64,000 nt of DNA from Balanoglossus misakiensis (taxonomy: Eukaryota; Animalia; Hemichordata), in contig CM082576.2 of assembly GCA_040954595.2 (NCBI GenBank), forward strand, positions 18,647,028 to 18,711,027, given 5' to 3'. The stretch's first letter is position 1. The number at the start of each line of letters is the position of its first letter. This document shows, in pieces, positions 3,502 through 40,482 of this stretch. Under the pieces are notes generated by a model, which worked only from the letters and a program-made list of their open reading frames with translations, had not been told where the DNA came from and did not search any database. The position numbers were made by a program, and so were the translations under genes.

Positions 3502-3639
3502 ATATAGCTGTGAACAGCAATAAGCGGGTTTCGAGACACTACTAGCCCTATTGGTTCGCCTGGAGATAGATTTGTGCATATTTAATTACTGCATTAGTTG
3601 TTCTATCACTCCAAATGCCAAGGGTGTATGTGCTGTGGA

Positions 3640-4555: not shown

Positions 4556-5334
4556 GCTGCAGACTATTGCACCGACCAGAATTCTACAAAACTATGTGGC
4601 CATAGCTTAAGTATAGTGGAATAAGTATAGGTATAGATTTCATAAAAAAATTAATATAAAAAAATCGATCGATTTTCCATATTATTTTTTCCAGTTGGAA
4701 CTGATTGTCGGAAGGTAGGCTAGCTGCACACAAAATTTGAAGCTGATCAGCCCAGCGGATGTTGAGATATTGGGCATAAATCTAAAATCCTAGGGGGCCA
4801 TTGCTTAACCATGGAAAGTATAGGCCAATGGCTGGGTCCAATGGTCATGGAAAATATGTAAAATAATGCTTTAAAAATCATCTCCTGAAAATCGGCAAGG
4901 ACTTAGACATTGAAATTTGGCATATAGGACCCTGGCCATATGGTCCACAAAGTTTCTGAACAGAATTTGGATTCTTCATTTTTTATGCAAATTAGACCAA
5001 TTTAAAAGTTTAAATCCAAGATGGCTGCCAGGTCATGTGACCTGTTGCCATAGTGACATGATCAAAAAATTACTTGCTTTGAGTTTTACCTATGAGCCAA
5101 ATTTCAAATCATTGGGTGCAACGGTCTTCGAATAGCGGCTGTTTTTAAAAGTGGGAAGAAGAATAATTAAATAAAGAATTATAATAATAATAATAAATAT
5201 AGCTGTGAACAGCAATAAGCGGGTTTCGAGACACTACTAGCCCTATTGGTTCGCCTGGAGATAGATTTGTGCATATTTAATTACTGCATTAGTTGTTCTA
5301 TCACTCCAAATGCCAAGGGTGTATGTGCTGTGGA

Positions 5335-6485: not shown

Positions 6486-7091
6486 TGCTGCAGACTATTG
6501 CACCGACCAGAATTCTACAAAACTATGTGGCCATAGCTTAAGTATAGTGGAATAAGTATAGGTATAGATTTCATAAAAAAATTAATATAAAAAAATCGGT
6601 CGATTTTCCATATTATTTTTTCCAGTTGGAACTGATTGTCGGAAGGTAGGCTAGCTGCACACAAAATTTGAAGCTGATCAGCCCAGCGGATGTTGAGATA
6701 TTGGGCATAAATCTAAAATCCTATGGGGCCATTGCTTAACCATGGAAAGTATAGGCCAATGGCTGGGTCCAATGGTCATGGAAAATATGAAAAATAATGC
6801 TTTAAAAATCATCTCCTCAAAATCGGCAAGGACTTAGACATTGAAATTTGGCATATAGGACCCTGGCCATATGGTCCACAAAGTTTCTGAACAGAATTTG
6901 GATTCTTCATTTTTTATGCAAATTAGACCAATTTAAAAGTTTAAATCCAAGATGGCTGCCAGGTCATGTGACCTGTTGCCATAGTGACATGATCAAAAAA
7001 TTACTTGCTTTGAGTTTTACCTATGAGCCAAATTTCAAGTCATTGGGTGCAACGGTCTTCGAATAGCGGCTGTTTTTAAAAGTGGGAAGAA

Positions 7092-7128
<37 letters not shown>

Positions 7129-7175
7129 CAACACGATTTCAAGAGGGTTTCGAGACCCCTCTGGTCTCGAAACCC

Positions 7176-16100: not shown

Positions 16101-17200
16101 GGTAAATGGCGATGCAAGCTTGATGATGCATCATGGTAGATAGTGATGCAAACACTTCACTTTGACATGGGCATTAAATGCATATGGGGATTTCAAGTTG
16201 ATTACAAATCCCTGGATTAATACGCGTCCAAAAGCACTGTAATTTGACATTGCTAATGCGATGTTGACATTGAATGTAATTCTCCGCATTAGGGCAAATG
16301 GCAAAGCAAGCTTAATGATGCAATGGAGTAGACGGTGATGCAAGCTATGCATTTTGACATAGGTATTTAATGCATGTGCTTGGGTATTTAATGTTGAATG
16401 TAAATTCCCAGGTTAATACATCTCCAAAAGCACTGTAATTTAAAATTGCTAATGTAAGGGTGACATTGAATCTGATTCTTTGCATTATGGGAAATGGCAT
16501 AGCAAGCCTAATGATCCATCTGAGTAGATGGTGATGCAAGCTAAGCATTTTGATATAGGTACTAAATGTATATACATGGGTATTTAAAGTTGTCTGTAAA
16601 TCCCCAGGTTAATTCTTGGCAAAAAGCAATTTTATTTTACATTGCTAATGAAATGGTGACACTGAATCTGATTCTTTGCATGAGGGTAAATGGCGATGCA
16701 AGCTTGATGATGCATCCCGGTAGATAGTGATGCAAACACTTCACTTTGACATGGGTATTAACTGCATATGGGGATTAAAAGTTGACTGAAAATCCCTGGG
16801 TTAATACAAGTCCAAAAGCACTGAAATTTGACATAGCTAATACAATGGTGACATTGAATGTGATTCTTTGCATTAGGGGAAATGGCGTAGCAAGCCTAAT
16901 GATGCATCAGTGTAGATGGTGATCCAAGCTCTGCGCTTTGGCATACGTATTTAATGCATGTGCATGGGTATTTAATGTTGAATGTAAATTCCCAGGTTAA
17001 TATATGCATGGGTATTTAATGTTGACTGTAAATCCCTAGGTTAATACATGGCCATAAGTACTGTAAGGGGTAGATGGTGATGCAAGCTCTGCACTTTGAC
17101 ATGGGGATTAAATGCATGCTGAGGGGGATTTTAAGTTGTCTGTAAATCCCCAGGTTGATATGTGGCCAAAAGCACTGTAATTTGACATTGCTAATGATGG
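7176..17200. repeat. Satellite A, main block with higher-order repeats (~958-bp 5-mer, 374-bp dimer expansions)
   Basis: Near-identical shadow ORFs recur at 957-bp (8325 to 9282) and 374-bp (10109 to 10483; 12202 to 12576 to 12950) intervals. The array degenerates after ~16600. Confidence 0.97.
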
Positions 17201-21193: not shown

Positions 21194-21727
21194 CACATGG
21201 GGATTAAATGCACATGCGTGTGTATTTAAAGTTAACTGTAAATCCCCAGGTTAATACGTGGCCAAAAGCACTGTAATTTGGCATTTCTAATGATGGTGAG
21301 ATGTTGTTTGCTCCCCAGGGAGTTGAATGGAATATTTAGGTCCAACATCCTAGGTCAAATGACCATGGGACAACTTAAAGCACGTTGAGATTTAATGTGC
21401 TACATAAGTTATAAATATTATAAAAATATTATTACATAAACAACACTCTTCCTTAGCAAAGGAAGTGGTCAGGTGAAATATATTCGCAGAGCTGACCAAT
21501 TCTTTAAGGAAAATTAAAGTTGGGTAATTTGGATGTATTCATACGAGTGTTGGTCAATGATAGGAAAGTCCTTTGTTCATTTTCAAAATGAAAACCAAAA
21601 ATGCGAACAAAACACACTGAATTACGTATGGGATATTGATGTTGCCTAATTTGCGTGACTCTACATTTACTTAAACTCTCACAGGGAGACAAATGTCACA
21701 GCAAACGGAAAAATGATTATGCTAAGC

Positions 21728-23695
21728 AATACGCCAACCTTTAAAATATTACTTTAGAAAGTTTGTATTCATACTTTCTTCAAGTTGTCATAACGCTACC
21801 CCGAAATGTGTTTAAGTATTGCCTTTGTATTAATGGGCTAGATTCATGGCGTTATATGTCATAAATTAAAAAGCCAACCCTTATTGATTTTGATAATATT
21901 TATGTCGGAGAATCCACAATGAAAAATATGTATTTCAATTTCATAACTCAAAATGATTTTCAAATCCATGACCTTATTTTCAACTCCAGTGATCGTACAT
22001 CCTGAACCTTGTGCCAGTAAATGATTGGCCATTACAGGGTTAATGGGCACTCTCCCGTTCTCTTCCTCCGCAGTTTCATTCATGTTCTTGTTTGACGGAA
22101 ATGGGTGTGACCAGACGCTTGAATGTTTTCATGTGGGTGTCGTTGTTCATCGGGATCGGTCTCCTGGTGTGTCTGTACAGGTACGCAAGGAGAAACTGCC
22201 CACAAGAAGCTGCGAGTGAAACTATTTAAGGTAGTATGTGCCTCGCGGTCCGAGATTCAGACAAATGATAGTCCTCAAAACTTTTTCAAGTCTTTGATTT
22301 ACTAAAGTGTATGGTGAGTCTCTTTGAAAACAACAAAAACATTACTCACCATATTGTTATTTTTTTGAAAGTTTAAAATGAAGTTGACAATGTACCAAAC
22401 AGATTCTATTTATTTCTTCATGACCATGTTCACCCCAAGGTCATATGGACCTGCAAGTATATGCCAGAGCCAGAGTCGACATTACCGAAGCCAGAGTTCA
22501 AAGCTTGCAGGTCACCCCTTGCCAGCTCATGACTAGCTAAACTGCCATGGATGCCAAGAGATATAGGACTACAGTAACCTGTAGATGGTTTCAGTATGTT
22601 TGAAGAAAGTGGTGGCGCACTTTTGGCTACATTTGAAATGGCTATGGTACCAGTGGTTGAATTTGCAAAGGTGACCTTTGACCTGGTATCATTAAAGATA
22701 TTAAAGAACGATTGAACATTCCTTGTTGTCGTAAAATGACATCTGTAATAACTTATATTTTATCTGTTCATCTTGAAGTACTATATATTTAAACGCCAAT
22801 TTTCCATTGCCAATCAATTTTTACAAATAAATTGTAATATGCATGTTGATTTTACAAAAACTCCTTACTTCAAAGTGAATTCTGTTACACATCACGTAAA
22901 TATTTTCCCCACGAATTCTTCAGTTGCTGACTCGGAAATTTCATATATTGGGCAGAAATTGGATACATTACCGAGCCATTAAAATTACAGTTTTCTATTT
23001 TAATTGATCTTCCATAACTTCAAGTACTTTGATTTGACATAAATTAAAAACATCATGGTGAATAAATAAAAAAATCTTTGATTATCTAATTGTGCATGTT
23101 TACATGGTTTTATTTTAGTATGCTGGGTACTTAATGTCTAATTGCTCTCTGATTTTATACTGTTCAAGATGACAATCTAATTTTAGTTTTCAGCTGATAA
23201 TGGAAATTACTGATTAAAAAAATTGAATGTTGTCATGAATAAACTTGTTGTTCATGGCAGTTGCTGTACTTTGTTTCATGTGTATTCAATTTTTGCAAGA
23301 ATACCATTGAGCACAGTTTGATTTGATTAAACACGTTTATCGGAAAATTTTGTCATTTGAAATATCTGTTTTTGCGCCCTCTACCATTTGACCAAATGAT
23401 TCTCTTATTTTGGTGGCCTTTGTCTGTGTATATGAGAATACTATAGTACTCTCGCATCGATGATAGTAGAAGTTGAAAACGTCTCTTGCCACGTGGCCTA
23501 GAAGAAAGGTGATCTTTAGAGTAAAATAAAACAAACTATCCAGATAGGAAGCTAGAAAAGAAGTTGAATCGTTGAAATTTTATTTATTTTTATATTGTTA
23601 ATATCGTTGGTGATGTTGACTGGCCGACAATCTTTGTCACACCAGTATTTGCAGGTAGATTAAAACATTGCCTATTCCAGCAATAATCACAACAG
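21728..23695. repeat. ~2-kb dispersed duplicate, copy 1 (paralogue at 38516-40482)
   Basis: Colinear high identity from CAATACGCCAACC to CAATAATCACAACAG. The ORFs at 21859-22083 and 38669-38872 are near-identical. Confidence 0.92.
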
Positions 23696-23909
23696 TCTTA
23701 CTTTTTCTATCTTTGTAAGCGTTAATCTTTATTGACCTCGCTTGTTGTTTTGTGTTTTTGTGTTGGTTTTGTTTTTGTTTTGTTTTTTTAGTAGTTTCAT
23801 AATTTTATTTGTATTTTTAAAATGTTTTCCTGTTTTTTGTTTACTTTTTTATTTTTTTTACTATTTGTTGATTGTAATGCTGTATGGGTCTCGACTGTCG
23901 GTCCCAACT

Positions 23910-25206
23910 TGTCATATAATTAGGTACTACTGGAGTCAGTGGAAACCCAGGTGCCCGCATAATTTCAGGTGTAGTGACACCGTGTATTGTCATGTTAATG
24001 AATAGGGCTTCGTTAGCTAAGTTTCGTGTAGTAAGAGAGCACACTTCAATTTAGGTCTTGAAGGGAGCAACAAGTCGGGTCTCCCTGCTCAGTGAGTAGA
24101 AATACTAGGGGAAATATTGCACCATACCTTGCTGTGTCCATGTAATGCTGTAGCGCGCATTAGTGCTCTCAGGACCACTGTTTCTGCAATTCGAGTGGAA
24201 GTAAATTCAGTACTTCTAGAAAGCAGAATTATGCTTATTCAGTGCAAACCGGTGTGGTCGGGCGATTGGCGTGGCTGGCATGGTCGTATGTGGTGTGGCT
24301 GGAAATTGCTCCAAGCAGAGTTCTGTGGAACCATCCTATAGACCCGGTATTGCTGAGCATGAAGTGTGGTGAAGAATTCTCGTGTAAGTAATGTATTTGT
24401 TTATTTATTTACTATAACTTAAATTTATATTTTATGGATATTTATGTCAAATTCGACAATTTGTAAGTAATAGGACGGTCATAGTTAAAGCATAATTTTC
24501 CATGATATCACATGTAATCATGACGCTTTAACTAGTCCAAATTTCTGATAATTATTATTGAGAAACGTCAGTATTCATTTGTGAACAGTTGCTAAGGTGG
24601 ACATTTCAGTCAATGTTTGTTGATTTTTCATTCAGCCATTTAACCCAAGACTTGCATCTAACAAGTCAGTCTTCAGTGTGTTTACTTGACTACTGGAGGA
24701 CTACAAGTGGTAGAAAACATGGTGTATCACAGATTGTATGTGTAATGTGGATCGTCGCTACATCGTTCATCTATACAGGACTCCATCCCATATTGTGGTT
24801 GAATCATGATTGTTTACTATGAATGTTATGTACAGCTAAGTGACACTTACCATTGTTTAGACAATATGCAATAGACAATAAACTATAGTGATATTGTGAA
24901 TATATTCATTTATGTAATATATTAAGTAACCCATTGTATTGTATGACCAATTGTATCAGCATACCTGTACCTGCTAAATTGGTTAGGACAGAGACATTTG
25001 ATATTGTGCATATTGTGCACAAAAATTATATTCCTAGTATTATCTTTATATTATTTAATTGATTTAAATTAAATCAACTGTATTATTGTATCCGCACTGG
25101 TTTGTGTAGTTTCTCCCCATACCTTATCCACGGATGTTTACTCCTTGGCACTGAGAGCTGCTCAATATTTATCCTGGAATCAGAGGGGTGCCCTCCACCT
25201 CTGACA
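23910..25206 (+). mobile_element. 5' LTR (~1.3 kb) of a Gypsy/Gmr1-type retrotransposon
   Basis: Begins TGTCA exactly where similarity to the empty paralogue (40792-40816) stops, and ends TGACA two bases before the PBS, giving 5-bp inverted termini. Confidence 0.75.
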
Positions 25207-25208
25207 TT

Positions 25209-25225
25209 TGGGGGCTCGTCCGGGA
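25209..25225 (+). promoter_or_regulatory. Primer-binding site complementary to tRNA-Pro 3' end
   Basis: TGGGGGCTCGTCCGGGA matches 17 of 18 nt of the canonical Pro PBS TGGGGGCTCGTCCGGGAT. Confidence 0.9.
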
Positions 25226-25507
25226 GTTTTATCGTTTTGTTGTGCATTTGTTTGTATACTATCATAAATTGTTGCCATATAGTGGAGACCATGGTTTTGA
25301 TAGGTAGAGATTCTGCAAATTGTGAAGACGGTGCTGGGTCTGTAGGCTGGTACTGTTACTGTATGTGCGCTTGTGGTTTCCTGCTATATAATATGGGCCG
25401 TGTTGGTTTGCGTCGTGCGTTTGGCTGTGTTGACTTGTGCTGAATGCCCTGTACTGCTAGGGGTTGTCAAACTGGGGGTTGTAAATCGCGATACAGCAAA
25501 GCATATA

Positions 25508-27317
25508 TGCAGAAAGAATATCTAAGATAGGGAGAAAATTTGGGTTGGAAGGGACTGCTTTAAAAGATTATGTTAGAGAGGAACAAATTAGACAGAGGGA
25601 TCTTAGGGCTACTGAGAGAGAGGAGCAGAGAGAAGATAATAGGCGGCGCGAGGAACATGAGAGAGAGATACTGAAAATGCAAATTCACTTACAAGAATTA
25701 AAATTGAAAGGGGAAAATACAGAACAGCAGGTTACTGAAAATAATTTGGCCAAAGCGCGTGCTCCGAGACTACAGGGTTTACGTGAGGATGTTGATGATA
25801 TGGATGCGTACCTTCAACGTTTTCAGCGCTACGCCACTGCTCAGAAGTGGGAAAAAGATGACTGGGGGTGAATCTCAGTGCATATTGTTACAAGGTAAGG
25901 ATGTATCCACATACAACCAAATGCCTGCAGCGTCTGCAAATAATTATGATGAATTGAAACCAGAGTTATTGAGGGCTTACCAGTTAAGTGAGGAGAGTTT
26001 TCATGACAAGTTCCGTTCGTGTATGCCACATTATGATGAAAGTGCTCAAAAGTTTATGGACCGTATTGGTGACTATTTGGGCAGATGGGTAGAACTGGCT
26101 GGTACTCCAAAGACGTACAATGGGCTTACAGATCTGTTACTTCGAGAGCAGTTTATTGGAGTATGTTCCAGAGACATGGCAATGTTCATTAGAGAGCGAC
26201 GGCCAGAGAATGTCCAAGAGATGGTATCTACTGCCTCAAAATACTTAGATGCCCGAGGGTGGTGGAAACTGCCAAGTAATGCCAAGAATAATCCAAGGAG
26301 CCAGCCGACAGCAAATACCAAGCCTGCTGAATATCCAAATCAAGTAAATAAGTTTAATAACAAAACCAATGGTTCCCATGTTTTTAAAGGTACGTGCTTC
26401 GTATGTGGTAAAGGTGGTCATATGGCCAAAGATTGTAGAAGTAAGCCAAAGATGCATAAGACGGCGGTATTGTTAACTGAAGAAGATAGAAACTATCCAC
26501 CTAAACAAGAATGTACACATTGGGGCAACCGTCAACAGCCCAGGGGACTAGACACTGGTTATGCATGTATGGTGGTAGCAATGGAAATAGATAAAACAGA
26601 TGCAACACTGAATAAGGAGTTCGTGTTACCATGTGGTCATAAGCTCCCAGTGATGAGTGCTGCTTGTAGTGCCCATGGAGTGAAGAAGATGCCAGTAATG
26701 AAGGGATTGGTCGATGGTAAGCTGGTTAGCGTTTTGCGTGATAGTGGGTGTAGTAGCGTGGTAGTTCGAAGAAGTCTGGTGTCAAGTAATCAGCTGACTG
26801 GTGAGTACAGGACGTGTGTTCTGATAGATGGGACTATTAGAAGAGTACCTGTAGCCTCTATAAAAGTTGATACCCCTTACTTTGTTGGTGATGTTACTGC
26901 ACTGTGCATGATGAACCCTGTGTATGATTTAATACTGGGCAACATTGATGGTGTATCTGACCCTTCGAATCCTGATACTACATGGCAGGAACCATTGCCG
27001 ACATGTAGACTGTGTACAACTGTTGGACAGGTACCAGGTTTAGCAAATGCTGTGGAGACCAGAGCCCAGAAGATAGCCAACCAAAAACCAATCAGAGAGC
27101 TTAAAGTACCTAAAGCTGTTGGTGAAGTGGTGATGCCAGGGAAGCTTCAACAAGCTCAAGAAGAAGACTCCACTCTTGACAAACTACGTGAGAAGGCAAT
27201 TTTGGGTGACGAGAAAGTGACTAGGAATGGAGGTAGGTTGAAGTTCATCATGAAAGATGGGATCCTGTACAGAGAGTTCAATTCGCCAATGGTCCAATTT
27301 GGTGAAAAGCTGTTACA
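25508..27317 (+). pseudogene. gag-pol: Gypsy (Gmr1 clade) gag-protease region, frameshifted and interrupted
   Basis: Coiled-coil N-terminus, DDMDAYLQRFQRYA, SCAN-like capsid segment LLLREQF...RRPENVQEM, zinc knuckle CFVCGKGGHMAKDC and protease LRDSGCS. Frameshift near 25870. Confidence 0.92.
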
Positions 27318-27363
27318 CACTGCGGGAAATACTAGAGCTATGTTGGGCAGTATTCCGCGAAGC
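27318..27363 (+). repeat. Left bipartite terminal inverted repeat
   Basis: CACTGCG, a 19-bp spacer, then TGGGCAGTATTCCGCG. Confidence 0.85.
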
Positions 27364-27401
27364 GCGAGCTCCCATGTTCACCATAGCAACGCATTGCCAA
27401 G

Positions 27402-28052
27402 ATGGCGGCGCCCGTGTTGATCGATGCCGAGAAAGTTATAAAACGCAAATTGCGAGAGGCAAAATCTGTGCTTAAACGTAAAAAATGCGTGTCGGACAAT
27501 CTGTATATACACCCACTCTTTGATGAACTTGAGGATGTGACAACAAGGGCCATATTTCGAAACGACAAGCTGTCAAAGGACAAGATTCGTTGGCGTGACG
27601 TCGCCGTATTTCCCATGTTTCAGCGTGATATGACCTACTGGCAGAAGACCTTCTACGCTCGGCTGTCAACATCCCCGTCGTTAAGGTCACCATGGCAAAG
27701 CAGCTTTACACAACAAATGCCGAGGGAAGTATTTGATGTTTTTCCTCAGTTTGCTACTCGGACCGGTTTTGGTATCGACGAGAAGACCTCCAGGGCTATC
27801 ATAACCTTGACCTTCACAAGTTCCTCGAAGCTATTGTATGTGATACGGAAAGGTTATTGCTACGAGGGCGCTATCGGTCAGCATACAGAGAATATCCTAG
27901 AGAAGAAAGTCCGTGGAAAGAGGGTAGCTGTTATATGCACACCTGAGAAGCCCTGTGTTGTGAAATATTTTATCAACAGGGAGACTGTTGCTGTTAGATT
28001 CAGCTTTGGTGCCTGGAACAAACATGGAATTCCATTACATCCAGAGAACTGA
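27402..28052 (+). CDS. Intact 216-aa basic protein of unknown function carried by the transposon
   Basis: ATG in strong context (CAAGATGGCGGCG) 84 bp inside the left end. Single uninterrupted ORF, higher GC than the flanks, AATAAA at ~28181. Confidence 0.75.
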   Translation: MAAPVLIDAEKVIKRKLREAKSVLKRKKCVSDNLYIHPLFDELEDVTTRAIFRNDKLSKDKIRWRDVAVFPMFQRDMTYWQKTFYARLSTSPSLRSPWQSSFTQQMPREVFDVFPQFATRTGFGIDEKTSRAIITLTFTSSSKLLYVIRKGYCYEGAIGQHTENILEKKVRGKRVAVICTPEKPCVVKYFINRETVAVRFSFGAWNKHGIPLHPEN

Positions 28053-28904
28053 ACCCTATTGATTTTTCACACTGATTCAACCCATCTGACGAACATTTTT
28101 TTCCTGATCTGTGGCACATGTTGTTCAGTGTAGATGTATCAGTCTGTCAAGACAGTCCTCTCACAATTGACATATATTCAAATAAAAAAAGGAAAATTAG
28201 AAGACTCAAAAATTCATCACTTGTCTTTATTTATCTACATTCAATACAAATGAACAGATAACGTTTACAAAATTTCCTAAACTGTAAAATTCTTTTTTTC
28301 CATCATTATTGTAACATAGATTTTTCATTAGTTTCAGAAAAAAATGTATGTTACCTACAATCAACATTGATAAGTCAATCAAAACTGCTCATCTAACAGT
28401 TAACCAGGATTTCTGGTCTAAATTTAATTAATATTTACAATTAATTCCATGACAAAATTTATAAATATCAAGAATTTGATGAGACTTAATTCTTTATTTT
28501 TTCACAAATTCATTAAAATTTCGTGCAGGTGCAGAATAAACAACTCCTCAAGAAAAATGTAAAACTTTTCTATCAAGCTTATGTATGTCATACATTTTAA
28601 TTTTGCAAAGCACTGCAATCACTATACGATTAAGGGTTTATTCACAATACTTAATAGTGGTAAGATAAGTTTCAATTTCCCTGTCCCCATACATGCACAC
28701 ATATACAAAATCCCATAAGAAACATATCATCTCCAGTTCAAAAAGTGTGAATTCATGTGATTTGTGATCTCCATTTTTATTAAATGCAGCTCTCAACTAC
28801 AGATGAGTCTTTATAATTCTGTAATGTAATTAATACCATAGTTATCCTTTAATTCTAAAGTAGCACACAGTGACACAATCCACTGTTTCAAATTCAATCA
28901 TTGT

Positions 28905-31137
28905 TCACAGCATAAGTTTCTTGAGTTTATTTGATATTTTACCAGTGACAGCTGCTTTTTTTATGTCATCCATAATTGGGTCAACACATATTTCACAGGC
29001 AGTCATTGTTTCATTTTTCAAATTGCCACACATACAGTAGCCTGCATTCTCATAATATCGACTGGGAATGTATTTTTCTTTTTCTTTAAGCTCAAATTGA
29101 CCTACATTTGCCCTTCTATAGTTGTCAGCTTTTGGACTTTTGTTCCTCAGCCAAAAAAGCATCACATATTCGTGTCGAAATATGAGGGCCCACCTATTTT
29201 GAGGTGTAGAATTTTCACTGAATTCTAGCAGGCGTAGATGCTTTGCCTCTCTGCCTTCCATTGTGTTTAGGCCTAATCCCAGACTGAATTGCTTATAGAT
29301 ACTAGTGGTGTGTTTTGGGACTACATAACCAATGTGCCACACAGTATTATTGACATTCAGAAACAGGGAATGTAGATTAAAGTACCACCGACACTTATGC
29401 CTAAGTACAAGCAAATCTCCCTCATTTATGTTGAATCGTGAGAATAACAAAGTGATATCTCTAAGCAAGATACCAGTATATGTGTAGAGAGCTAATTGAG
29501 CCCGACGCTTTGGACTGTCTGTATCGCTTCTCAATGCTAATACCAATCCCATGAAATGCCAAGCAAGTTTGCGAGACTCCTCACCAGTGAAGCGATAAAC
29601 CACATTAATGTTGGCATTTGACTTGACACTATTTTCATTGAAGTATTTTACAATCTTATTATACAACTTTCCAGCTTTTACTTGATATTTTAGGGCAGAC
29701 AGGAATTTGTACAGATATGACTCGTTAGGTAGATTCTCAATTTTAACTCCATTTTCACGACCCTTTTCCGAAGTGTGGGCAACTGCGTCAATCAGTAATC
29801 GTTGGAAGTAGTATTGCCATGCATTGTTCTTTAAATGCAATGGCTCAGCCTTGGCACAATCAATAAATCTACCCAACGGTGGTACAAATTCCTGTCTTGA
29901 CCTCAGACTGGCTATAAATTGTGTGATTTTGGGTCGCACTGTTTTGGGCTTTCCAGTTTTAATTTTCTTAGTTGACTTCAACTTTTCAACAGCTTCTGCA
30001 TCTTTTCTGATATTTCCATTCATCCCACTTCTGACCTGGGCCAATTTCTGCTCCAATACAATCAATATCATTTTTGGAAACGTTAGCAAATGAGCTGAAA
30101 TACTTTGCTGCATTGCTTAGTTCTCCAGACACACTGGCCAATCCCTTCTGATCAAAGGGTAAAAGTGACACCTGAAAAGTTACATCAAGACTGCCAACTT
30201 TATATTTACGTTTCTCAATACACTCAAGGTCTTTTGACAATGCAATTGCAAATTCAATCATTATGGGGTCATCCTCTTTTATGTTTGCCCCTAATAGGAG
30301 AAAATTGTGGTCTGGGCTAGCAACACGGTGGGTCACATTCAAGAAACTAACTAGCCATGCAGTGGCCTGTCCATGTTTGCCAAACGGAGCCCCGTCAGCA
30401 CCTATACTGATTTGAAATGAGCCCTCCTGTTTACCGAACCAGTTAAGAATATCAGGCTGTGTTTCCCCCATATTTAAATATAAACTGGCAATCTTAATAA
30501 GCAACTCCTCAGGGTTTCTTTTTAAGCCGACTTGTTTGCCTTCAGATGATATAATTGGCTCAAGATTTCCAATGTCAAGGTTACTTACATACTGTACAAC
30601 TTTTGTGTATGGGAGCAGTCTTGGTATTCTACAGCCAGAATGAATTTCTAATGCTTTCCTAGGATGTTTCAAGTTGGAGAACATCTGAAGTTCACTCTGC
30701 CTCAGACAGTTATATTTTCGTTTGGATAGTACTCCGCCCTCATACATAGTTCTGACACTCCTCACCAAATTGTTCTCACTTTTCTCAAATTTACTGATGT
30801 ATTTATCAAATACTGATGGCATTACTTTTTTACTGATTTGGGGAGAGGTTCTGAAGTATGTTTTCATTTGGTCAGGAGTGGCAGAATTAACAAGAGTATA
30901 CCACAAACCATCAAGTGCTGCTTTTGGTGGATGTAGTACATTCGGTTTATTTATACCTTTGGCTGGGCTTACATCTGTAGTTGCTACATGAATATTTATG
31001 GCTGCTGATAAGGTTTCACACCTACGTTCATACTGTTGACGTCGCGACAGCTTCAAAGATTCACTATTATCTGCACATACTTCAGTGTTCTTGTGGACCC
31101 ATTTAGAGCGTTTCACATTAACATCATCAACAGGAAT
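28905..31137 (-). pseudogene. RAG1/Transib-like DDE transposase, main exon (one frameshift near 30005)
   Basis: Motifs are colinear with the RAG1 core: IGADGAPFGK (first D, ~30395), PFDQKGL (second D, ~30152; cf. YDEKL), EPLHLKNN (cf. DALHCDIGN), FTGEESRKL (cf. MNGNFARKL), LGLNTMEGREAKH (E, ~29248; cf. IGAWASEGNESGN). C-terminal CxC...CxxC. Confidence 0.85.
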
Positions 31138-31490
31138 CTGAAAGATTAAGTGTGTGATAAATATATACTAATTAGAATATAATCATTATATATAAAATAA
31201 AATCTTCTTACAAGTTAATCATTAATTTAAATGTCCTTGATAAGAAATACACACGTGTAGCCTGTATTTTTCTGACAACTTCTGCAATAAAAATCCTAAA
31301 AAATATATATAGTTTGTTGGAAAACCTAGATGTTTTGCATCAAAGCTGAACCCATTTTGTTATCATTGTTTACACAGGATCATGTGACATGAAGTTCAAA
31401 AAGCGAATTTGGGCTAAAATTTGAAGAGGATTTATACAAATCTGAGATTTTTAAAATTATGACTAAGTCTATTTATCTGATCTAGCTTAC
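31138..31490 (-). other. Phase-0 GT-AG intron in the transposase gene (353 bp)
   Basis: On the minus strand, donor AAG|GTAAGC and acceptor TCTTTCAG|ATT. Splicing joins ...NNKRK to IPVDDVNVKRSKW in frame. Confidence 0.8.
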
Positions 31491-31934
31491 CTTTCTCTTA
31501 TTATTCTTTGTAGCTAAGATCTCACAAATCTTACTGTTCTTCTTCTCTAGTCTAGCTAGCTGGGTTGAGGATCTTTTTACTAGTCTCCTAGCTGCACTCA
31601 ACTTATTCAACTTATCCTGAATTATGCTTTCTTCCTCATCTATCTTTCTCTTTCTCTGTCTACACCACTCTCCTAAGTTAAACCTGTGTTTAGTCTGTCC
31701 TCTCTTTGTTCTAACTACCAATAGGTTGTTGGCCACGCTCCCAGACAAAGATCTAGTCTTCAATTTCTCCTGATATAGTTGTTGCAAACACTTCTCTTCA
31801 GCTACCTGTCCCGCTATCTTTTGGTCATTTGCCCACTGGCCTATGTTGAAGTAACTTTTCCCTTTTCTATTCGGCATAACAATAGACAAACTTTTAAGAA
31901 GTGCGCTACTCCTGTTGAATAGTTTGCCCCACAT
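31491..31934 (-). CDS. N-terminal coding exon of the transposase (start at 31934 or 31877)
   Basis: Basic, coiled-coil-like ORF ending at the splice donor. An upstream acceptor (TTTTCAG, ~31951) and donors (~32086, ~32654) suggest 5'-UTR exons. Confidence 0.7.
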
Positions 31935-32737
31935 GGCTCTAAATCTATACCTGAAAAGGGTGAACAAGAGAAATATCTTTACAATAATTATCTATCCGAG
32001 GGAAGCAAAAACAAAACACCTGCTCATTATACTTCCTCCAGAAATTGAGGTCAAAGGTGACATAGAAAGAATGTGGGTAACCTTACCATAACAATCTCGC
32101 CCGTTCATTTTTTTCTTATTTCGTTTTCACCCTCGAATTTCCAGCGAATTATATCAAGAATATATTTTAGCACAAACTATTGGTTTCTGATTTTTCAGTT
32201 ACGGTCTTATTTTCTGTCAATTCTATGAACAATATCACCATGTCGCTGAAAATTCGAAGCGCCGCCATTACAATCAATGTAACCCGTGCTGCTGCCAAGG
32301 AACAGACAGGGTCGTATATTTTCGCTTGGTATGATTTCGTCATATTGCTTGTAGCAGCATTTTAAACATGGAATCCTATGTTTACGTATAAAAGACTAAA
32401 TTCGTATGGTTTTCAAATTGAAAAAAACAATTCTGTGAAGCTGAATCGTTGTAATTTTTAGTGTTTGTTTATGGTTGCTTAGGACGGCTTCTGCTATAGC
32501 AACGGCCAGGGACTGTCAGCGGGTGATCAAAATGTTCAAGTTATTTGGCTGATACACATAAATAACACAGCAGAATCGCAACTTTATTTCATATTGTCTC
32601 TGACATCTTGCTAATTTTACTAAACAAAACTTGGAATAAAGCAATATTACTCACCGAATTATGCTGTGCATCGACAGCTGTGTTCGATCGCGAACGCCAT
32701 TACTGTGTCTAATTAAATATTCATGAGCTTCATAGGC

Positions 32738-32783
32738 TGCCACGGAAATACTGCCCATAGGTGGCGTCGTTCAAGCTGTAGTG
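32738..32783 (-). repeat. Right bipartite terminal inverted repeat
   Basis: The reverse complement reads CACTACA, a 19-bp spacer, then TGGGCAGTATTTCCGTG. Confidence 0.85.
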
Positions 32784-32784
32784 A

Positions 32785-34796
32785 CAGGTGGTGGTTCCCA
32801 GAGTGTATCGTAACCAGGTGATGAGACTAGCCCATGAATCAGTGCTGGGTGGTCACCACGGAACTCACAAGACCACAGACAAGATCCTCAGCAACTTCGT
32901 TTGGCCTGGGCTAACATCAGATGTTTCCCGTTACTGTCAGTCCTGTGATTCATGTCAACGGACACAACCAAAGGGACGGGTGACCAAGGTACCACTTGGA
33001 AGTATGCCACTAATAGATATCCCTTTCCTACGTATTGCAGTAGACCTGGTTGGCCCTATTCATCCATGCACTGAACGCAAGAATAGGTACATACTTACTG
33101 TTGTTGATTATGCAACACGCTATCCGGAGGCTGTTGCATTGACTAACATTGATACCAAGACTGTTGCAGAGGCGCTCCTGGACATCTACTCAAGAGTGGG
33201 GTGTCCACGTGAAATTCTGACAGATCAAGGAACTCAATTTACATCAGATGTGATGCGTGAGGTCAGCCGGCTTTTGTCTATAAAGCAGAAGACTACCACC
33301 CCATACCACCCAGCATTCAATGGTCTAGTGGAACGGTTCAATGGTACATTGAAACTCATGCTCAGGAAGATGTGTGAGGAACGTCCAACATATTGGGATC
33401 GTTATCTGAATGCTTTACTATTTGCCTACAGAGAAACGCCTCAATCGAGCACAGGATTCTCTCCGTTTGAGTTACTTTATGGGAGGAGTGTGCGTGGTCC
33501 AATGGCTATCTTGAAAGAACTATGGACTGGAGAGATCAGTGAACCAGAAACCAAAACGACTTATCAATACATCCTTGATCTTCAAAAGAAATTAAAGAAG
33601 GCATGCGATTTAGCAAGACAAGAACTGAAGATATCACAAGGCAAATACAAGTCCTACTACAATAGAAAGGCCAAATGGAGGAAGTTCAACAAAGGTGACG
33701 AGGTGTTATTGCTACTACCTACTGACCATAATAAACTACTTATGCACTGGAAGGGTCCTTTTCCAGTGGTGGAGAAAGCGAGCAATATGGATTACAAGAT
33801 TGACTTTGGTCATAGGGTGAAAACATTCCATGCCAACCTGTTGAAGAGGTACTATCGAAGAACTGATCAGCTAGATGAAGTATCAGCTGGACTTCTTGAG
33901 ATTGTGTGTGTATCTGTGATAGATGAGCAGAGTTATGAATCTTCAGAAGTACAAGAGAACACAGGGGTTAAAGTAAACGATGACTTACTGCGGGTTCCTG
34001 CATTCAAGCAGAAAGAATTTGCTGCAGATGTGAATGTATGTGACAACTTGTCAGACATACAGGAGCAAGTGGTGAGGAGGTTGCTGATCAATTACAAAGA
34101 TATGTTAACTGATATTCGTGGTAACACCAACCTGGGTTTCCATGACATCAAGTTGATGGATCCAACACCAGTATGCAGTAGGCCATACCCCATCCCTCAT
34201 GCACTCCGTGAAGCAGTGAAAGATGAAGTCAAAACGATGATTAAGATGGGAGTAGCTGAACCTTCAGAGAGTCCATATGCTGTTCCACTGGTAATGGTGA
34301 AGAAATCTGATGGGTCCAATCGTTGTTGTGTTGACATGAGAAAGCTCAATCGCATAACAGTGTTTGATGCAGAGCCTACACCAGACCTGAGTGAGCTTTT
34401 TGCTTTTTGCTAAGTTATCCAAGGATCACTATTTCACTAAAGTAGATCTCAGCAAAGAATATTGGCAAGTCCCGTTGACTGATAATTCTAAACAATTGAC
34501 GGCATTTATCACGCATGATGGGCTATACCAATTTATCAAAATGCCTTTCGGACTTGTAAATAGTGCTGCGACTTTTAGCAGAATTATGAGAAGATTGTTA
34601 AGAGATATGAAGAACGTAGACAACTATATCGATCACATACTGATCCACACTGCATCATGGGAAGAACATATCAAGACAATTACAGATTTGATGAGCAGAC
34701 TACGAAAGGCAAAGTTAACAGCGAGACCAACTAAGTGTTATGTGGGTTATGAGCAGATCGATTTCCTGGGTCATGTGGTTGGTCATGGTGAACTAG
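32785..34796 (+). pseudogene. pol: Gypsy (Gmr1 clade) integrase followed by reverse transcriptase, 3'-truncated
   Basis: HHCC (HESVLGGHHG...CQSCDSC), DDE (VDLVGP, LTDQGTQF, NGLVERFN) and WKGPF. RT motifs follow (SPYAVP, VDMRKLN, MPFGLVNS, YIDHIL with D>H). Frameshift at ~34400; homology ends after FLGHVVGHG; no RNase H or 3' LTR is seen. Confidence 0.95.
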
Positions 34797-34849
34797 TCCT
34801 GTTTCAAAATGACCTACATTACAGGTCGTATGCACACGTATTACATGTT

Positions 34850-35160
34850 CTGATTGGTTTATCCACTTCTCTAAGGTCCACTTGCGGCTCGCTGATTGGA
34901 GGGACCTTATGTGTTAGGTCTTATTACTATGTATTATTCACCAGACCTTGTAGGTTAGGTCTTATTACAATGCATTATTCACTTTACAGCTCCCTGATTG
35001 GTTAATGTGTAGGTCTGGTCCTCCAGTGTTCACTGCCTCATTATGCAGGACCTTGTAGGTTAGGTCTTATTAATATGTATTTATTCACCATACAGCTCCC
35101 TGATTGGTTAACGTGTCAGTCTGGTCCCCCCCAGTGTTCACTGCCTCATTGTGAAATGTC
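34850..35160. repeat. Short degenerate ~105-bp tandem repeat
   Basis: GACCTTGTAGGTTAGGTCTTATTA and CAGCTCCCTGATTGGTTAA recur at ~105-bp spacing. Confidence 0.7.
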
Positions 35161-36688
35161 CCATGTGCTTCCTGGCTAGCATTGTGGTAACATATTATTC
35201 GGGGTGTCCGCAGATCGTTCATTGATTTTCTGAGAAATAGCCTAACTGATACTATCTCCAACATAAACCGCACCCTGGAAAGATTAAATGATCTTTTAGG
35301 TGGACTTTGAAAATCTGATTAACTCATCTAAGCATTTTAGCTAAGTTGTATATTTTTTAATTATAATCATACAAAATACTTAAAAAATAAAAACAATGTT
35401 CAGTTTTAATACCCACTGATGAGGGGAAACATCAGTTTCAAATTCTTTTCATGGGAGCGCTTGAGCAGAGTTATGAGTTTTGCTCTGTGAAAGAAAATGG
35501 GGGGATTTCAAAATTTTGGCAGTTCGGAAGGGGGATTTCAAAATATTTCGGGTTGTGAAAGGGGGGGGGGCATGTGAAAATTAGCGGTAAAAGATGAATC
35601 CCCCCCCCCCTCCAGAGGTGTTTGTGAATGCAGCCTAAGAAAGAAAAAATGTGAAATGGGTCAAATATGGGCCGGACGTGCCCATTCAACTCAATTTACT
35701 TTTGTTTGCTTTAAGTAGGAATTGATCACAGCTATATTTATTTTGGACACCTGAGCGACAAGAAAACAATCTGATTCTACATTTTAAAAAGCGTCATTGG
35801 AAAAGCACTGCAATTTTGTTTCTTGCTTTAAAAAAGTTTGGGGTGGCATGTAATAATTAAGGTGTGTCTAAATTACTAATTTGGTGCACCTCAAAGCCCT
35901 TAGCCAATGTAAATTATATCCTGCATTGTATTCATGAAGGATATCCTCCCGCGAGGTCAATGCCATTCAATGTCAAACAGTCTCAACAAAGACCATTGGA
36001 CACTCATAGCCGTTTTGTATGAAAGTGACTGGAGTACGAGATGAGTTTCATGACAACAACAAATCATGCTCAGTCTCGCTGCAGGGTCTATAATTTCAAT
36101 AACGGCTAGACGCTGGACACTATCTTAGGTAACACTTTAGGGTCATAGTGCTGGAACGACATGTTTAAACAGGTCGTTCCGGCACTCTGACCCTTTCGGC
36201 CCCAGTCGTTTCAGCCCCCATTTTCCACGACCCAAGTCGTTACAGCCCGGACAGTAACACCCCAAACATTTCAACACTTATCAGGGAAGACCTTAGCCCA
36301 ACTATTAAAACTTGGCTTGAACCTACTTAAGTTCTCCGCATGAAATATGAGCGAGCGTTGTCAGAGGACGACAGCTACGCACACTTTGGGCGTGACCGAA
36401 TCAAACAGAATTGAATATTCTATATTCGGAAAAAACACCTTATCTCCGTTTTGCCGTTGACAAACCGATTTCTGTCATGACAGTTACTCCCGGGGACTGT
36501 GACAGACCATATACAGACAGTAGAGGCCGCGCGCTGGGGGTCTACACAAGTCACTACAGCTGATGTAAGCAAGTACAACATGCTTTGCTTGCAGGAATGT
36601 TCCATTTTCAATAGAGGGGTGTGTATATTCAGAGGGAATGTCAGTCAGGGCCCTGGCTGGCAACATGCGGCGTATATATTGACAATCT

Positions 36689-37615
36689 TAGCCGGGAGAC
36701 CAGGGCGTCGATCTAAAATACAACGCTCGGGGACAGTCGAGCAAGTACTGCTGAGCTGAAAGATAGTAGTCTTGGCAACGATCGAGGTCGCTTAGTAACA
36801 AATGGATAACGAGTGATCTATCAAATGTTGACGGGCGCCAGTGGTTGGATGATATAATTAAAGGCACGTAAGCTGTAACTGGATAAAAAATTAAAGTTTT
36901 AAATAATCTCATATATGCTTTTAATTATGTCTATTAAATGCTATTTCATGATAATATATCAAGCTCAACACTTATTTATGACAAAATGGCCAAAAATTAA
37001 AGAAAAACGAAAATTCCTGCAATTTTAAAAAAGCGCAATATTGCAATGAAAAATGAAAATCTGATGTCTCAGTGGTGTACATTTACTTCCATGAGCTCAA
37101 GTGGATGAGATCATGTTTTGTTTATGAAGTTTCACAACCGGAAATGCAACATTTTCATTGTTTCTTGCATTTTCCCACGGTGGCGGCCATAATCGCTTGC
37201 GGCAAAGCTTTATTATTTATCTGGTTAAAACTTGCATATGCACTCATACTTAGGGTTTATAATGCTTGTGTATTGTTCACTACCTTCATCTGTATGGGCT
37301 AATGGTAGTGCAGTTTGAAACAAAAATTATGAAAATTATCCCAAAAGTTACACCTTACGTGCCTTTAACAAAGCTTGGTTATGAATATTCATACGCCTTC
37401 AAAACCACTCCCACATCCCATCGCGGGAATTTCACACATGACTCCACCTCTATTTCCTTATTTAGAAGGCGACGATGTCATGTGGTTAACATTGAGTGAC
37501 CAATTAGCTTACACGCAAGATTTACCACACGTGTCGTTCTACGAACAGAATTCTGTTCGTAAATAGAGACTGTCCCCGGGCGTTTCTTTTCCCCGACGCC
37601 CTGGTCTCCAGGCTA
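36689..37615. mobile_element. Non-autonomous DNA transposon with TAG...CTA termini and 9-bp TSD (AcademH- or hATm-like)
   Basis: TIRs TAGCCGGGAGACCAGGGCGTCG / CGACGCCCTGGTCTCCAGGCTA. TGACAATCT is duplicated at 36680-36688 and 37616-37624. Confidence 0.85.
36862..37364. mobile_element. Kolobok-type MITE nested in the 9-bp-TSD element
   Basis: TTAA|AGGCACGTAAGCTGTAACT...AGTTACACCTTACGTGCCT|TTAA. Confidence 0.85.
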
Positions 37616-37926
37616 TGACAATCTCGCTGATAGGCGCAGCTGGAATTTATGTTTCTGTGGTATGATTATTGTATTTTATCAATGCACAATCACGATGGGC
37701 GAGTTTCAAGCAAGCAATTGGATTCGCTTCAATCCCTCACTAAAATCTAGACTGCACCACTGTATAATAACACAATACAGTCTTCTAGCCTCATGGTATA
37801 AACAGGAACTCTTGTCTGCTGGACATCCGGGTACTTTGGTCTACTGAGTGAACGCGTTACGTATAGAGGTAGCGCAAAGTGAAAACCTATTTAAGGCAGC
37901 CACAACAATCAGTGTTGACGTACATA

Positions 37927-38030
37927 CAATCTGACTAAAATCGCAGTTGGTATGACGACAGCATACTAATAATACTGTACCACATAAGTAAAAGACGTCG
38001 TCGTACCATACATCTGATTTTATTCAGATT
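37927..38030. mobile_element. ~105-bp hairpin mini-element, diverged copy
   Basis: AATCTGACTAAAATC...GATTTTATTCAGATT arms, with inner GGTATGACGAC / GTCGTCGTACC. Confidence 0.65.
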
Positions 38031-38046
38031 ACTGCATATTTGCATA

Positions 38047-38257
38047 TACTGTGAAACAAGTTATTTTCGCGAGCAATACATTTTCGCGAGATACGTGAGA
38101 GCCAAAATGGTATGAAAATAAGAGGTCGCATAATTATTTTTGAAGATAACGATGCAGTGAATGAAATAAGAGAACGCGAAAATTAATACTCGCGAAACAG
38201 TAGCCTCTCTCGATATCGTGAAAATTTCAACTCGCTAAAATAAAGTGTTTTACAGTA
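38047..38257. mobile_element. TA-flanked ~210-bp MITE
   Basis: TACTGTGAAAC...GTTTTACAGTA termini with repeated internal TTTTCGCGAG / CTCGCGAAA motifs. Confidence 0.75.
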
Positions 38258-38290
38258 GTTTATGTATGTAAAGTGTTCCTGATGTTAACA

Positions 38291-38401
38291 CAATCTGATT
38301 AAAATCAGATGTAGGCCTAGGGAATGGCGACGTAGTTTTTTGATGCTGCGACAGCATAAAAAACACGTCGCCGTTCCCTACATCTGATTTTAATCAGATT
38401 A
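38291..38401. mobile_element. ~110-bp hairpin mini-element
   Basis: Near-perfect palindrome AATCTGATTAAAATCAGATGTAGG...CCTACATCTGATTTTAATCAGATT, flanked by GTTAACA on both sides. Confidence 0.75.
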
Positions 38402-38515
38402 GCGTTAACATAACTTTATCAGAATAAGTTAACGCCATAACTTTGACAGAATAAGAGTTGCCTCAAACGGCTCTAACCGAATTTCCATTAATAGCAGAAC
38501 AAACAAGCTGTAATC

Positions 38516-40482
38516 AATACGCCAACCTTTAAAATATTACTTTAGAAAGTTTGTATTCATACTTTCTTCAAGTTGTCATAACGCTAACCCGAAATGTGTT
38601 TTAGTATTGCCTTTGTATTAATGGGCTAGATTCATGGCGTTATATGTCATAAATTAAAAAGACAACCCTTATTGTTTTTGATAATATTTATGTCGGAGAA
38701 TCCACAATGAAAAATATGTATTTTCAATTTCATAACTCAAAATAATTTCCAAATCCATGACCTTATTTTCAACTCCAATGATCGTACATCCTGAACCTTG
38801 TTCCAGTAAATGATTGGTCATTACAGGGTTAATGGGCACTCTCCCGTTCTCTTCCTCCGCAGTTTCATTCATGTTCTTGTTTGACGGAAATGGGTGTGAC
38901 CAGACGCTTGAATGTTTTCATGTGGGTTGAGTTGTTCATCGGGAACGGCCTCCTGGTGTGTCTGTACAGGTACGCAAGGAGAAACTGCCCACAAGAAGCT
39001 GCGAGTGAAACTATTTAAGGTAGTATGTGCCTCGCGGTCCGAGATTCAGACAAATGATAGTCCTCAAAACTTTTTCAAGTAATTGATTTACTAAAGTGTG
39101 TGGTGAGTCTCTTTGAAAACAACAACAATATTACTCATCATATTGTAATTTTTTGAAACTATAAAATGAAGTTGACAATGCACCAAACAGATTCTATTTA
39201 TTTCTTCATGACCATGTTCACCCCAAGGTCATATGGACCTGCAAGTATATGCCAGAGCCAGAGACGACATTACCGAAGCCAGAGTTTAAAGCTTACAGGT
39301 CACCCCTTGCCAGCTCATGACTAGCTAAACTGCCATGGATGCCAAGAGATATATGACTACGGTAACCTGTAGATGGTTTCAGTATGTTTGAAGAAAGTGG
39401 TGGCGCACTTTTGGCTACATTTGAAATGGCTATGGTACCAGTGGTTGAATTTGCAAAGGTGACCTTTGACCTGGCATCTTTAAAGATATTAAAGAACGAT
39501 TTACCATTCCTTGTTGTCGTAAAATGACATCTGTAATAACTTATATTTTATCTGTTCATCTTGAAGTACTATATATTTAAACGCCAATTTTCCATTGCCA
39601 ATCAAGTTTTTACAAATAAATTGTAATATGCATGTTGATTTTACAAAAACTCCTTACTTCCAAGTGAATTCTGTTACACATCACGTAACTATTTTCCCCA
39701 CGAATTCTTCAGTTGCTAACTCGGAAATTTCATATATTGGGCAGAAATTGGATACATTACCCAGCCATTAAAATTACAGTTTTCTATTTTAATTGATCGT
39801 CCATAACTTCAAGTACTTTGACTTGACATACATTAAAAACATCATGGTGAATAAATAAAAATTATTTGATTATCTAATTGTGCATGTTTACATGGTTTTA
39901 TTTTAGTATGCTGGGTACTTAATGTCTAATGGCTCGCTGATTTTATACTGTTCAAGATGACAATCTAATTTTAGTTTTCAGCTGATAATTGAAATCAATG
40001 ATTCAAAAAAATTGAATTTTGACATGAATAAACTTCTTGTTCATGGCAGTTGCTGTGTTTTGTTTCATTTGTATTCAATTTTTGCAAGCATACCATTGAG
40101 CACAGTTTGATTTGATTAAACACGTTTATCGGAAAATTTTGTCATTTGAAATATCTGTTTTTGCGCCCTCTACCATTTGACCAAATGATTCTCTTATTTT
40201 GGTGGCCTTTGTCTGTGTATATGAGAATACTATAGTACTCTCGCATCGATCATAGTAGAAGTTGAAAACGTCTCTTGCCACGTGGCCTGGAAGAAAGGCG
40301 ATCTTTAGAGTAAAAAAAACAAACTTTCCAGATAGGAAGCTAGAAAAGAAGTTGAATCGTTGAAATTTTATTTATTTTATATTGTTAATATCGTTGGTGA
40401 TGTTGACTGGCCGACAATCTTTGTCACACGAGTCTTTTCAGGCAGATTAAAACATTGCCTATTCCAGCAATAATCACAACAG
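38516..40482. repeat. ~2-kb dispersed duplicate, copy 2
   Basis: Direct-orientation paralogue of 21728-23695. Confidence 0.92.

What the first reader, a model, noticed from the sequence alone, without database searches (positions are those of the whole stretch)
27402..28052. Orphan 216-aa cargo ORF is the only unbroken gene in the window
Seen: intact, intronless, K/R-rich N-terminus (KRKLREAKSVLKRKK, NLS-like), predicted alternating beta-strand C-terminal half, strong start context and downstream AATAAA. It shows no kelch repeats or PHD Cys/His pattern, so it is not RAG2. Inference: candidate transposase cofactor, targeting factor or anti-silencing protein.
Basis: partly seen in the sequence, partly recalled or inferred. 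Interest (0 to 1): 0.75.

Follow-up and report, generated by a model that had tools for sequence, protein, structure and literature searches.

The report
Transposon partner gene unrelated to RAG2
This small gene is the conserved second gene of an animal cut-and-paste transposon family whose transposase has RAG1/CMC-type motifs and faces it tail to tail, as RAG2 faces RAG1, but it folds nothing like RAG2 and likely serves as a DNA-binding helper of transposition.

Summary
The ORF is real (27402-28052, 216 aa) but not an orphan. It lies in a 5,466-bp DNA transposon (27318-32783; CACT..AGTG ends, 3-bp target duplication ACA) inserted into a Gmr1-like LTR element, tail to tail with a frameshifted DDE transposase. 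It has 74 distant homologs. In 80 metagenome loci found by the transposase alone, a homolog sits tail to tail in 25 of 29 loci with enough downstream DNA (14 of 17 lineages), its ATG 69-131 nt inside a CAC end. The two genes' trees largely agree, and the gene is under purifying selection between families (dN/dS 0.28-0.54). A confident model (pLDDT 91) shows a helical N-terminus and a basic alpha/beta domain, no beta-propeller, with no significant structural match. The transposase has DDE, LH and CAC ends but lacks the CMC C(2)C motif (0 of 51). The 'NLS' is not conserved (3 of 68). Being unbroken says little: this copy looks like a neutrally decaying single fossil. Verdict: accessory gene of an apparently undescribed two-gene CMCT-like lineage, most likely a DNA-binding transposition cofactor (inferred). 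Repbase could not be checked, and distant relatives carry Pfam PF26709.

The parts
27315..27317 (+). Left target-site duplication ACA
   Evidence: Same 3 bases follow the right end (32784-32786)
27318..27357 (+). Left end of the DNA transposon: CACTGCGGG, then after 26 nt the block TGGGCAGTATT (27344-27354)
   Evidence: Block found once per end at the same distance; fits the CACNNNGGG start of related elements; a sister element in SRA contigs has CACTACGGG with the same spacing (table 7)
27402..28052 (+). Accessory gene P0001, 216 aa; helical N-terminus (3-87) plus basic alpha/beta domain (99-205), C-terminal motif (F/Y)GxWNxxGxP(Q/L)H
28181..28186 (+). AATAAA, candidate poly(A) signal of P0001
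   Evidence: function not tested
28226..28231 (-). AATAAA on the minus strand, one of several candidate poly(A) signals of the transposase gene
   Evidence: function not tested
28905..30000 (-). Transposase, C-terminal piece (EPLHLKNN, RFTG, W..GxVVPxH, MEGREAKH with the catalytic-type E, C-terminal CxC..CxxC)
   Evidence: 39 homologs at E<=6e-34 incl. Nematostella vectensis and Acropora cervicornis proteins; motifs
29986..31137 (-). Transposase, N-terminal core piece (GADGAP and PFDQK with the two catalytic-type D); frameshift near 30000
   Evidence: splice acceptor at 31138 predicted from sequence
31491..31950 (-). Predicted upstream exon of the transposase gene (basic, coiled-coil-like)
   Evidence: AG and GT boundaries in frame with the next piece; no profile match to the transposase alignment, so inferred only
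32743..32783 (-). Right end of the transposon: CACTACAGC and the block TGGGCAGTATT (32747-32757)
32784..32786 (+). Right target-site duplication ACA
21723..40482 (+). Host of the insertion: broken Gmr1-like LTR retroelement (LTRs 21723-23695 and 38511-40482, 96.5% identical; SCAN, zinc knuckle, protease, then integrase, then RT)
   Evidence: domain order as given for Gmr1-like in 10.1101/2025.03.03.638093 (passages)

Best explanation
The ORF is the conserved second gene of a two-gene animal DNA transposon family with CMC/Transib-type transposase motifs, and its product likely works as a DNA-binding helper of the transposase. Shown: fixed tail-to-tail layout, start just inside one CAC end, co-divergence with the transposase, purifying selection between families, a folded helical plus alpha/beta protein whose C-terminal 150 residues are net positive in 67 of 68 members. 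Inferred: both genes are transcribed inward from the ends; the basic alpha/beta domain binds element ends or target DNA and the helical N-terminus contacts the transposase or dimerises, so the pair cuts and pastes with a 3-bp stagger, in the manner of RAG2, Harbinger's Myb protein or CACTA TnpA. The copy in this window is a dead fossil that drifts neutrally. I put about 0.93 on 'functional second gene of the element' and about 0.55 on the cofactor role.
For: Linkage: 25 of 29 transposase loci with >=1.5 kb downstream, 31 of 40 with >=1 kb, 0 of 18 upstream; 14 of 17 lineages at 85% transposase identity, 36 of 37 profile hits on the strand opposite the transposase. A further complete element L081 has both genes, TIRs and a 3-bp TSD. 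3-bp TSDs in 5 of 8 elements with both ends readable (window ACA, L011 AGC, L021 ATT, L042 AAT, L081 ATA). ATG 69-131 nt from the CAC end. Trees of 15 pairs: all 6 starred splits of the accessory-gene tree occur in the transposase tree; Mantel r 0.93, rho 0.62, 0 of 10000 permutations. dN/dS 0.28, 0.35, 0.46, 0.54 in unsaturated pairs; pS 0.81-0.93 against pN 0.23-0.33 in deeper pairs. AF2 pLDDT 91, pTM 0.81. Median net charge +10 in the last 150 aa. Precedent for an interacting second protein: Harbinger (PMC5339849, passages), RAG2 (PMC8355894, PMC10629977, passages).
Against: No test here shows DNA binding or a role in transposition. 3 of 17 lineages (L017, L020, L067) show no detectable accessory gene despite 1.6-6 kb of downstream DNA, so it may be dispensable or too divergent to see. 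It evolves faster than the transposase (mean identity 26% against 43%), which also fits a host-conflict role. Co-divergence is expected of any cargo that stays on the element. L009, L045 and L047 have both ends but unmatched flanks. No structural homolog with a known function.
Confidence: 0.55

Rival explanations
1. The gene is a counter-defence (anti-silencing) or self-regulation factor: it binds the element's DNA, its RNA or a host silencing protein and keeps the element expressed, without taking part in the transposition chemistry.
For: Faster evolution than the transposase (26% against 43% identity); absent or undetected in 3 of 17 lineages; basic surface fits any nucleic acid; a weak language-model likeness of P0001 to Argonaute N/L1/PAZ clusters (score 0.94, 151 of 256 features, recognition 1546).
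Against: The Argonaute lead is below the tool's own marks, did not repeat with homolog P0181 (best 0.83, other families) and no Argonaute chain ranked among the listed rows of the fold searches except one SPARTA chain at E 0.098. dN/dS is below 1 in all informative pairs, with no sign of positive selection at gene level.
Confidence: 0.25
2. The gene is a target-selection factor that reads chromatin or a host protein and steers insertion, while the transposase alone can cut and join.
For: Precedent of RAG2's PHD reading H3K4me3 (PMC8355894, passage); conserved aromatic residues (W80, W98, F111, Y189, W205) could form a pocket.
Against: The five TSDs differ and show no target consensus; no reader domain found by Pfam or fold search.
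Confidence: 0.12
3. The ORF is a captured host-gene fragment or passive cargo with no function for the element.
For: This copy's four allelic differences are all non-synonymous; one homologous domain ends a Tau/MAP-repeat gene model in Tubulanus polymorphus (P0102).
Against: Same place, strand and length across elements whose transposases are only about 43% identical; dN/dS 0.28-0.54; 73 of 74 homologs are stand-alone proteins or fragments under 290 aa; many clusters have members on many contigs (47, 112, 216), as for a mobile gene.
Confidence: 0.04

Closest known systems
RAGL transposons (ProtoRAG, TransibSU; RAG1L-RAG2L)
   Same: Two genes in convergent (tail-to-tail) orientation between CAC-starting ends; DDE transposase with LH and a His motif before the last E; found in cnidarians and a nemertean (PMC7204232, passages).
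   Different: 3-bp TSD instead of the invariable 5 bp; ends CACNNNGGG, not CACTWMCAAA; partner is 200-260 aa alpha/beta, not kelch plus PHD; transposase lacks C(2)C and gave no hit to any PDB sequence (which I recall includes RAG1, BbeRAG1L and Transib) at E<=10.
Chapaev / Chapaev3 (CMC group)
   Same: 5'-CAC..GTG-3' termini, 3-bp TSD, DDE with LH motif (PMC4079192, passages); animal hosts.
   Different: TSDs are not TWA; no C(2)C; no Cys-rich Chapa or RING region in the conserved columns of the 39 homologs; the Chapaev passages read (PMC4079192, PMC4411706) name no second gene.
EnSpm/CACTA
   Same: CAC ends and 3-bp TSD are called consistent with EnSpm (PMC12730594, passage); CACTA elements have a second protein, TnpA (recalled).
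   Different: No Pfam CACTA transposase family matched any of 40 transposase sequences at E<=0.05; genes are convergent and separate; the partner matches no Pfam family in the local copy.
Harbinger/PIF and Kolobok accessory-gene systems
   Same: A DDE transposase travelling with a faster-evolving second protein (Myb-like in Harbinger, PMC5339849; KolX and others in Kolobok, PMC9587614; passages).
   Different: Other termini and transposase signatures; the partner is neither Myb/SANT nor Cys-rich KolX.
Pfam PF26709
   Same: Precomputed on 20 of 20 proteins returned by the P0001-family profile, two of them already P0001 hits.
   Different: Name and annotation could not be seen (not in the local library; 0 papers); P0001 itself could not be tested against it.

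Membership tests
RAG2/RAG2L | Six-bladed kelch beta-propeller | tested here: not met
   AF2 model, pLDDT 91: four N-terminal helices and a mixed alpha/beta domain with 7 strands; no kelch Pfam in 74 members
RAG2/RAG2L | C-terminal PHD finger | tested here: not met
   No conserved Cys in the family; protein ends at the GxP(Q)H motif
RAGL transposon | Convergent transposase and partner genes | tested here: met
RAGL transposon / Transib | 5-bp target-site duplication | tested here: not met
   3 bp in 5 of 8 elements, none with 5 bp
RAGL transposon / Transib | Transposase homologous to the RAG1 core | tested here: inconclusive
[quoted passage not shown] | 5'-CA..TG-3' termini and 2-5 bp TSD | tested here: met
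   CAC..GTG, 3 bp; definition from PMC12730594
CMCT clade | DDE triad | tested here: met
   D257, D342, E642 (L005 numbering) invariant in 51 of 51; their catalytic role is inferred from context
CMCT clade | LH motif and H(3-4)H motif between second D and E | tested here: inconclusive
   LH in 51 of 51; second His in 49 of 51; first His in only 23 of 51
CMCT clade | C(2)C motif after the second D | tested here: not met
   The matching stretch reads Y-F-S-x-F; no CxxC in 51 sequences, a single Cys in 4
Chapaev3 | TWA target between A and T | tested here: not met
   TSDs ACA, AGC, ATT, AAT, ATA; definition from PMC4079192
Chapaev / Chapaev3 | N-terminal Chapa zinc finger (and RING in some) | tested here: inconclusive
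   No conserved Cys/His cluster in the aligned N-termini, but many gene models lack their upstream exons
EnSpm/CACTA | Transposase similar to EnSpm families in Repbase | not testable with these tools
   No Repbase or Dfam access; Pfam scan of 40 sequences negative
Argonaute N/L1/PAZ domain | Fold match to Argonaute N or PAZ | tested here: inconclusive
   Weak Atlas lead, not repeated; no significant match
Pfam PF26709 | Score above the family cut-off | not testable with these tools
   Family absent from the local library; seen only as a precomputed label on relatives

The most novel reading that the evidence does not exclude
A RAG1-fold transposon lineage of cnidarians and other invertebrates lost the transposase's zinc site (C(2)C absent in 51 of 51) and gained an obligate partner of a new fold, placed tail to tail exactly as RAG2 is: a second, independent invention of the two-subunit RAG-style transposase, deserving rank as a new CMCT lineage.
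Probability: 0.3. Interest if true: 0.82.

Novelty: new variant of a known kind. Interest (0 to 1): 0.6.

Why it matters
The origin and original job of RAG2 is a long-standing question: RAG2L is the only partner described for Transib/RAG1-type transposases in the papers read. A widespread family with related transposase motifs and a different, compact partner in the same layout gives a natural comparison: it tests whether such enzymes repeatedly recruit a second subunit and what that subunit does. Several intact pairs with defined ends (L005, L047, L071, L081) make the test a simple two-plasmid transposition assay. It also annotates a large set of 'hypothetical' coral and invertebrate proteins as transposon products.

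Full report
Observation. The ORF reads 216 codons from ATG 27402 to TGA 28052 under the standard code, with context GCCAAGATGG and AATAAA at 28181. One of 300 shuffles of the 24.4-kb non-satellite region gave an ATG ORF this long. The window is repeat-rich animal-type DNA; no whole genome is held.

Surroundings. Two 1.97-kb direct repeats (21723-23695, 38511-40482; 96.5% identical) bound an LTR element with SCAN, zinc knuckle, protease, integrase and RT matches in that order, the order given for Gmr1-like elements (10.1101/2025.03.03.638093, passages). Between protease and integrase lies a 5,466-bp insert, 27318-32783, starting CACT, ending AGTG, flanked by ACA on both sides, with the block TGGGCAGTATT 26 nt inside each end. 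It holds P0001 on the plus strand and, facing it, a transposase gene on the minus strand in pieces (28905-30116, 29986-31167, and a predicted upstream exon) with one frameshift near 30000.

The transposase. The C-terminal piece found 39 proteins of 707-812 aa at E<=6e-34 among 4111 candidates, two named from Nematostella vectensis and Acropora cervicornis as uncharacterized. In 51 aligned sequences D257, D342, E642, the PLH..NN block and RFxG are invariant; the His before the last E is kept in 49, the first His of H(4)H in 23, and no C(2)C is present. Kojima defines the CMCT clade by CA..TG ends, 2-5 bp TSDs and C(2)C plus H(3-4)H (PMC12730594, passages); Chapaev has CAC..GTG, 3-4 bp TSD and C(2)C, LH, H(4)H, Chapaev3 a TWA target (PMC4079192, passages). 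So the element works like a CMCT transposon but fails one defining motif. No Pfam family (0 of 40 sequences meaningfully) and no PDB sequence matched; kinship to RAG1/Transib rests on motif order and termini and is inferred.

Not an orphan. The word-index search found nothing but phmmer over 1.84 billion representatives gave 74 hits at E<=0.001, 21-39% identical, nearly all 90-290 aa. Named cluster members come from Paramuricea clavata, Pocillopora damicornis and Tubulanus polymorphus (20 of the proteins were looked up). The family profile returned 20 proteins, all labelled PF26709, a Pfam entry I could not read. Conserved residues: W80, R87, P97, W98, P107, F111, Y189 and the terminal YGxWNxxGxPQH.

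Linkage. A scan of metagenome contigs with the transposase alignment confirmed 116 of 361 candidates and kept the best 80. Searching these with the P0001-family profile: tail-to-tail homolog in 25 of the 29 loci that reach the transposase C-terminus and have >=1.5 kb beyond it, 31 of 40 at >=1 kb, and 0 of 18 upstream at E<=0.001 (two upstream fragments at E 0.0017 were seen). Collapsing at 85% identity gives 14 of 17 lineages; L014 holds decayed remnants; L017, L020, L067 show none; 36 of 37 hits are on the opposite strand. The profile may contain proteins from the same samples, which inflates E-values but not the linkage. The ATG lies 69-131 nt inside an end of type CACNNNGGG (84 nt in the window), so the promoter must sit in the terminal stretch or outside the element (inference). 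Both ends were readable in 8 elements: 5 have a 3-bp TSD (window, L011, L021, L042, L081), 3 have unmatched flanks (L009, L045, L047), L071 lies at a contig edge. SRA contigs of one coded sample hold the same insertion and a sister element with the same end spacing and a diverged ORF in the same place.

Selection and co-divergence. From 23 intact coding sequences, 24 pairs had pN<0.35: informative ones give dN/dS 0.28 (L077/L080), 0.35 and 0.34 (L001 or L010/L007), 0.46 (L001/L002), 0.54 (L002/L007); five deeper pairs have pS 0.81-0.93 against pN 0.23-0.33 (Nei-Gojobori). For 15 pairs chosen as non-redundant, the two trees share all six starred accessory-gene splits, Mantel r 0.93, rho 0.62, 0 of 10000 (rows are kin, so this shows co-inheritance, not interaction). 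Against function in this copy: its 4 differences from the SRA allele are all non-synonymous, as are 9 of 11 in the transposase pieces, the SRA allele carries other indels, and about 3 breaks in about 6.7 kb of neighbouring coding DNA leave about a 75% chance of 651 bp staying open (hand estimate). The copy behaves as a young neutral fossil; selection acts on the family while it transposes.

Structure. With 74 sequences the model reaches pLDDT 91, pTM 0.81: helices 3-27, 30-53, 61-64, 69-87, then beta-alpha-beta-beta-alpha-beta-beta-beta-beta over 99-205. That excludes a kelch propeller and a PHD. No significant match in PDB or viral libraries; the C-terminal domain was not searched alone, so a new fold is not shown. 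The last 150 residues are net positive in 67 of 68 members (median +10), whereas the N-terminus is mostly acidic and an NLS-like motif occurs in 3 of 68. No invariant acidic residue suggests a nuclease site (inference).

Mechanism. Most likely a DNA-binding transposition cofactor (0.55), by analogy with RAG2, which contacts RAG1 and DNA (PMC8355894, PMC10629977, passages), and Harbinger's second protein (PMC5339849, passages). Four zinc ligands organise the ZnB domain of RAG1 (PMC10629977, passage); their partial loss here suggests, untested, that the partner braces or replaces that function. Rivals: anti-silencing or self-regulation (0.25), targeting (0.12), passive cargo (0.04).

Novelty. 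RAGL elements are convergent but have 5-bp TSDs and kelch-PHD partners (PMC7204232, passages; PMC9435367, first of two parts of the text; PMC4411706, passages). Kolobok lineages show that accessory genes are often gained (PMC9587614, passages). Searches (listings and abstract starts) showed no description of this family, and 10.1101/2021.09.26.461848 (passages) added none. Repbase, Dfam and subscription journals were not searchable and a Pfam entry exists, so it may already be catalogued without a function. An earlier scan note on a protist-like genome (e1-7450191) describes a similar layout with another orphan; I did not test it. Verdict: new variant of a known kind, interest 0.6.

Noticed in passing
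window 21723-40482: Gmr1-like LTR element (SCAN-bearing gag, integrase before RT) in an invertebrate-type genome; LTRs 96.5% identical; broken by frameshifts near 25800 and 34400 and by the transposon.
   Followed up: partly
window 27318-27357: The left end is itself an imperfect palindrome (GCGGGAAATACT ... AGTATTCCGC), and the two ends share only CACT and an inner 11-nt block at equal distance: a bipartite, symmetric end, unlike the more contiguous TIRs of the coral relatives.
   Followed up: partly
P0102 (Tubulanus polymorphus LOC141906646, three isoforms): The accessory domain forms the C-terminus (459-609) of a Tau/MAP-repeat gene model: either a gene-prediction join to a transposon copy or an exaptation.
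   Followed up: partly
L081:4415-12956: Complete element with both genes, TIRs and TSD ATA on an 86-kb contig of an Anaerolineae MAG; the 4.4-kb left flank has no ORF of 120 aa and repeats, so it is probably misbinned animal DNA. A second partial accessory-like stretch lies at L081:5000-5341 (+).
   Followed up: partly
window 51374-52811 and 56512-57950: Two copies of a 1.44-kb element with 217-nt inverted arms (96%) inside the AT-rich satellite; MITE-like.
   Followed up: no
window 1-17050: Satellite of about 196/192/182-bp units in higher-order blocks, interrupted by a 237-bp-unit array at 3631-6483.
   Followed up: no
window 41468-64000: AT-rich 77-78-bp satellite built of 27-29-bp subunits, with blocks in both orientations and duplicated 2.3-2.6-kb units; its long ORFs are repeat artefacts.
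   Followed up: no
window 29630-29715: SRA contig of 5,099 nt matches only here at about 84%: another transposase family member in the same sample.
   Followed up: no
L034:1162-1275: The only accessory-gene fragment on the same strand as the transposase, 38 nt after it; probably a rearranged copy.
   Followed up: no
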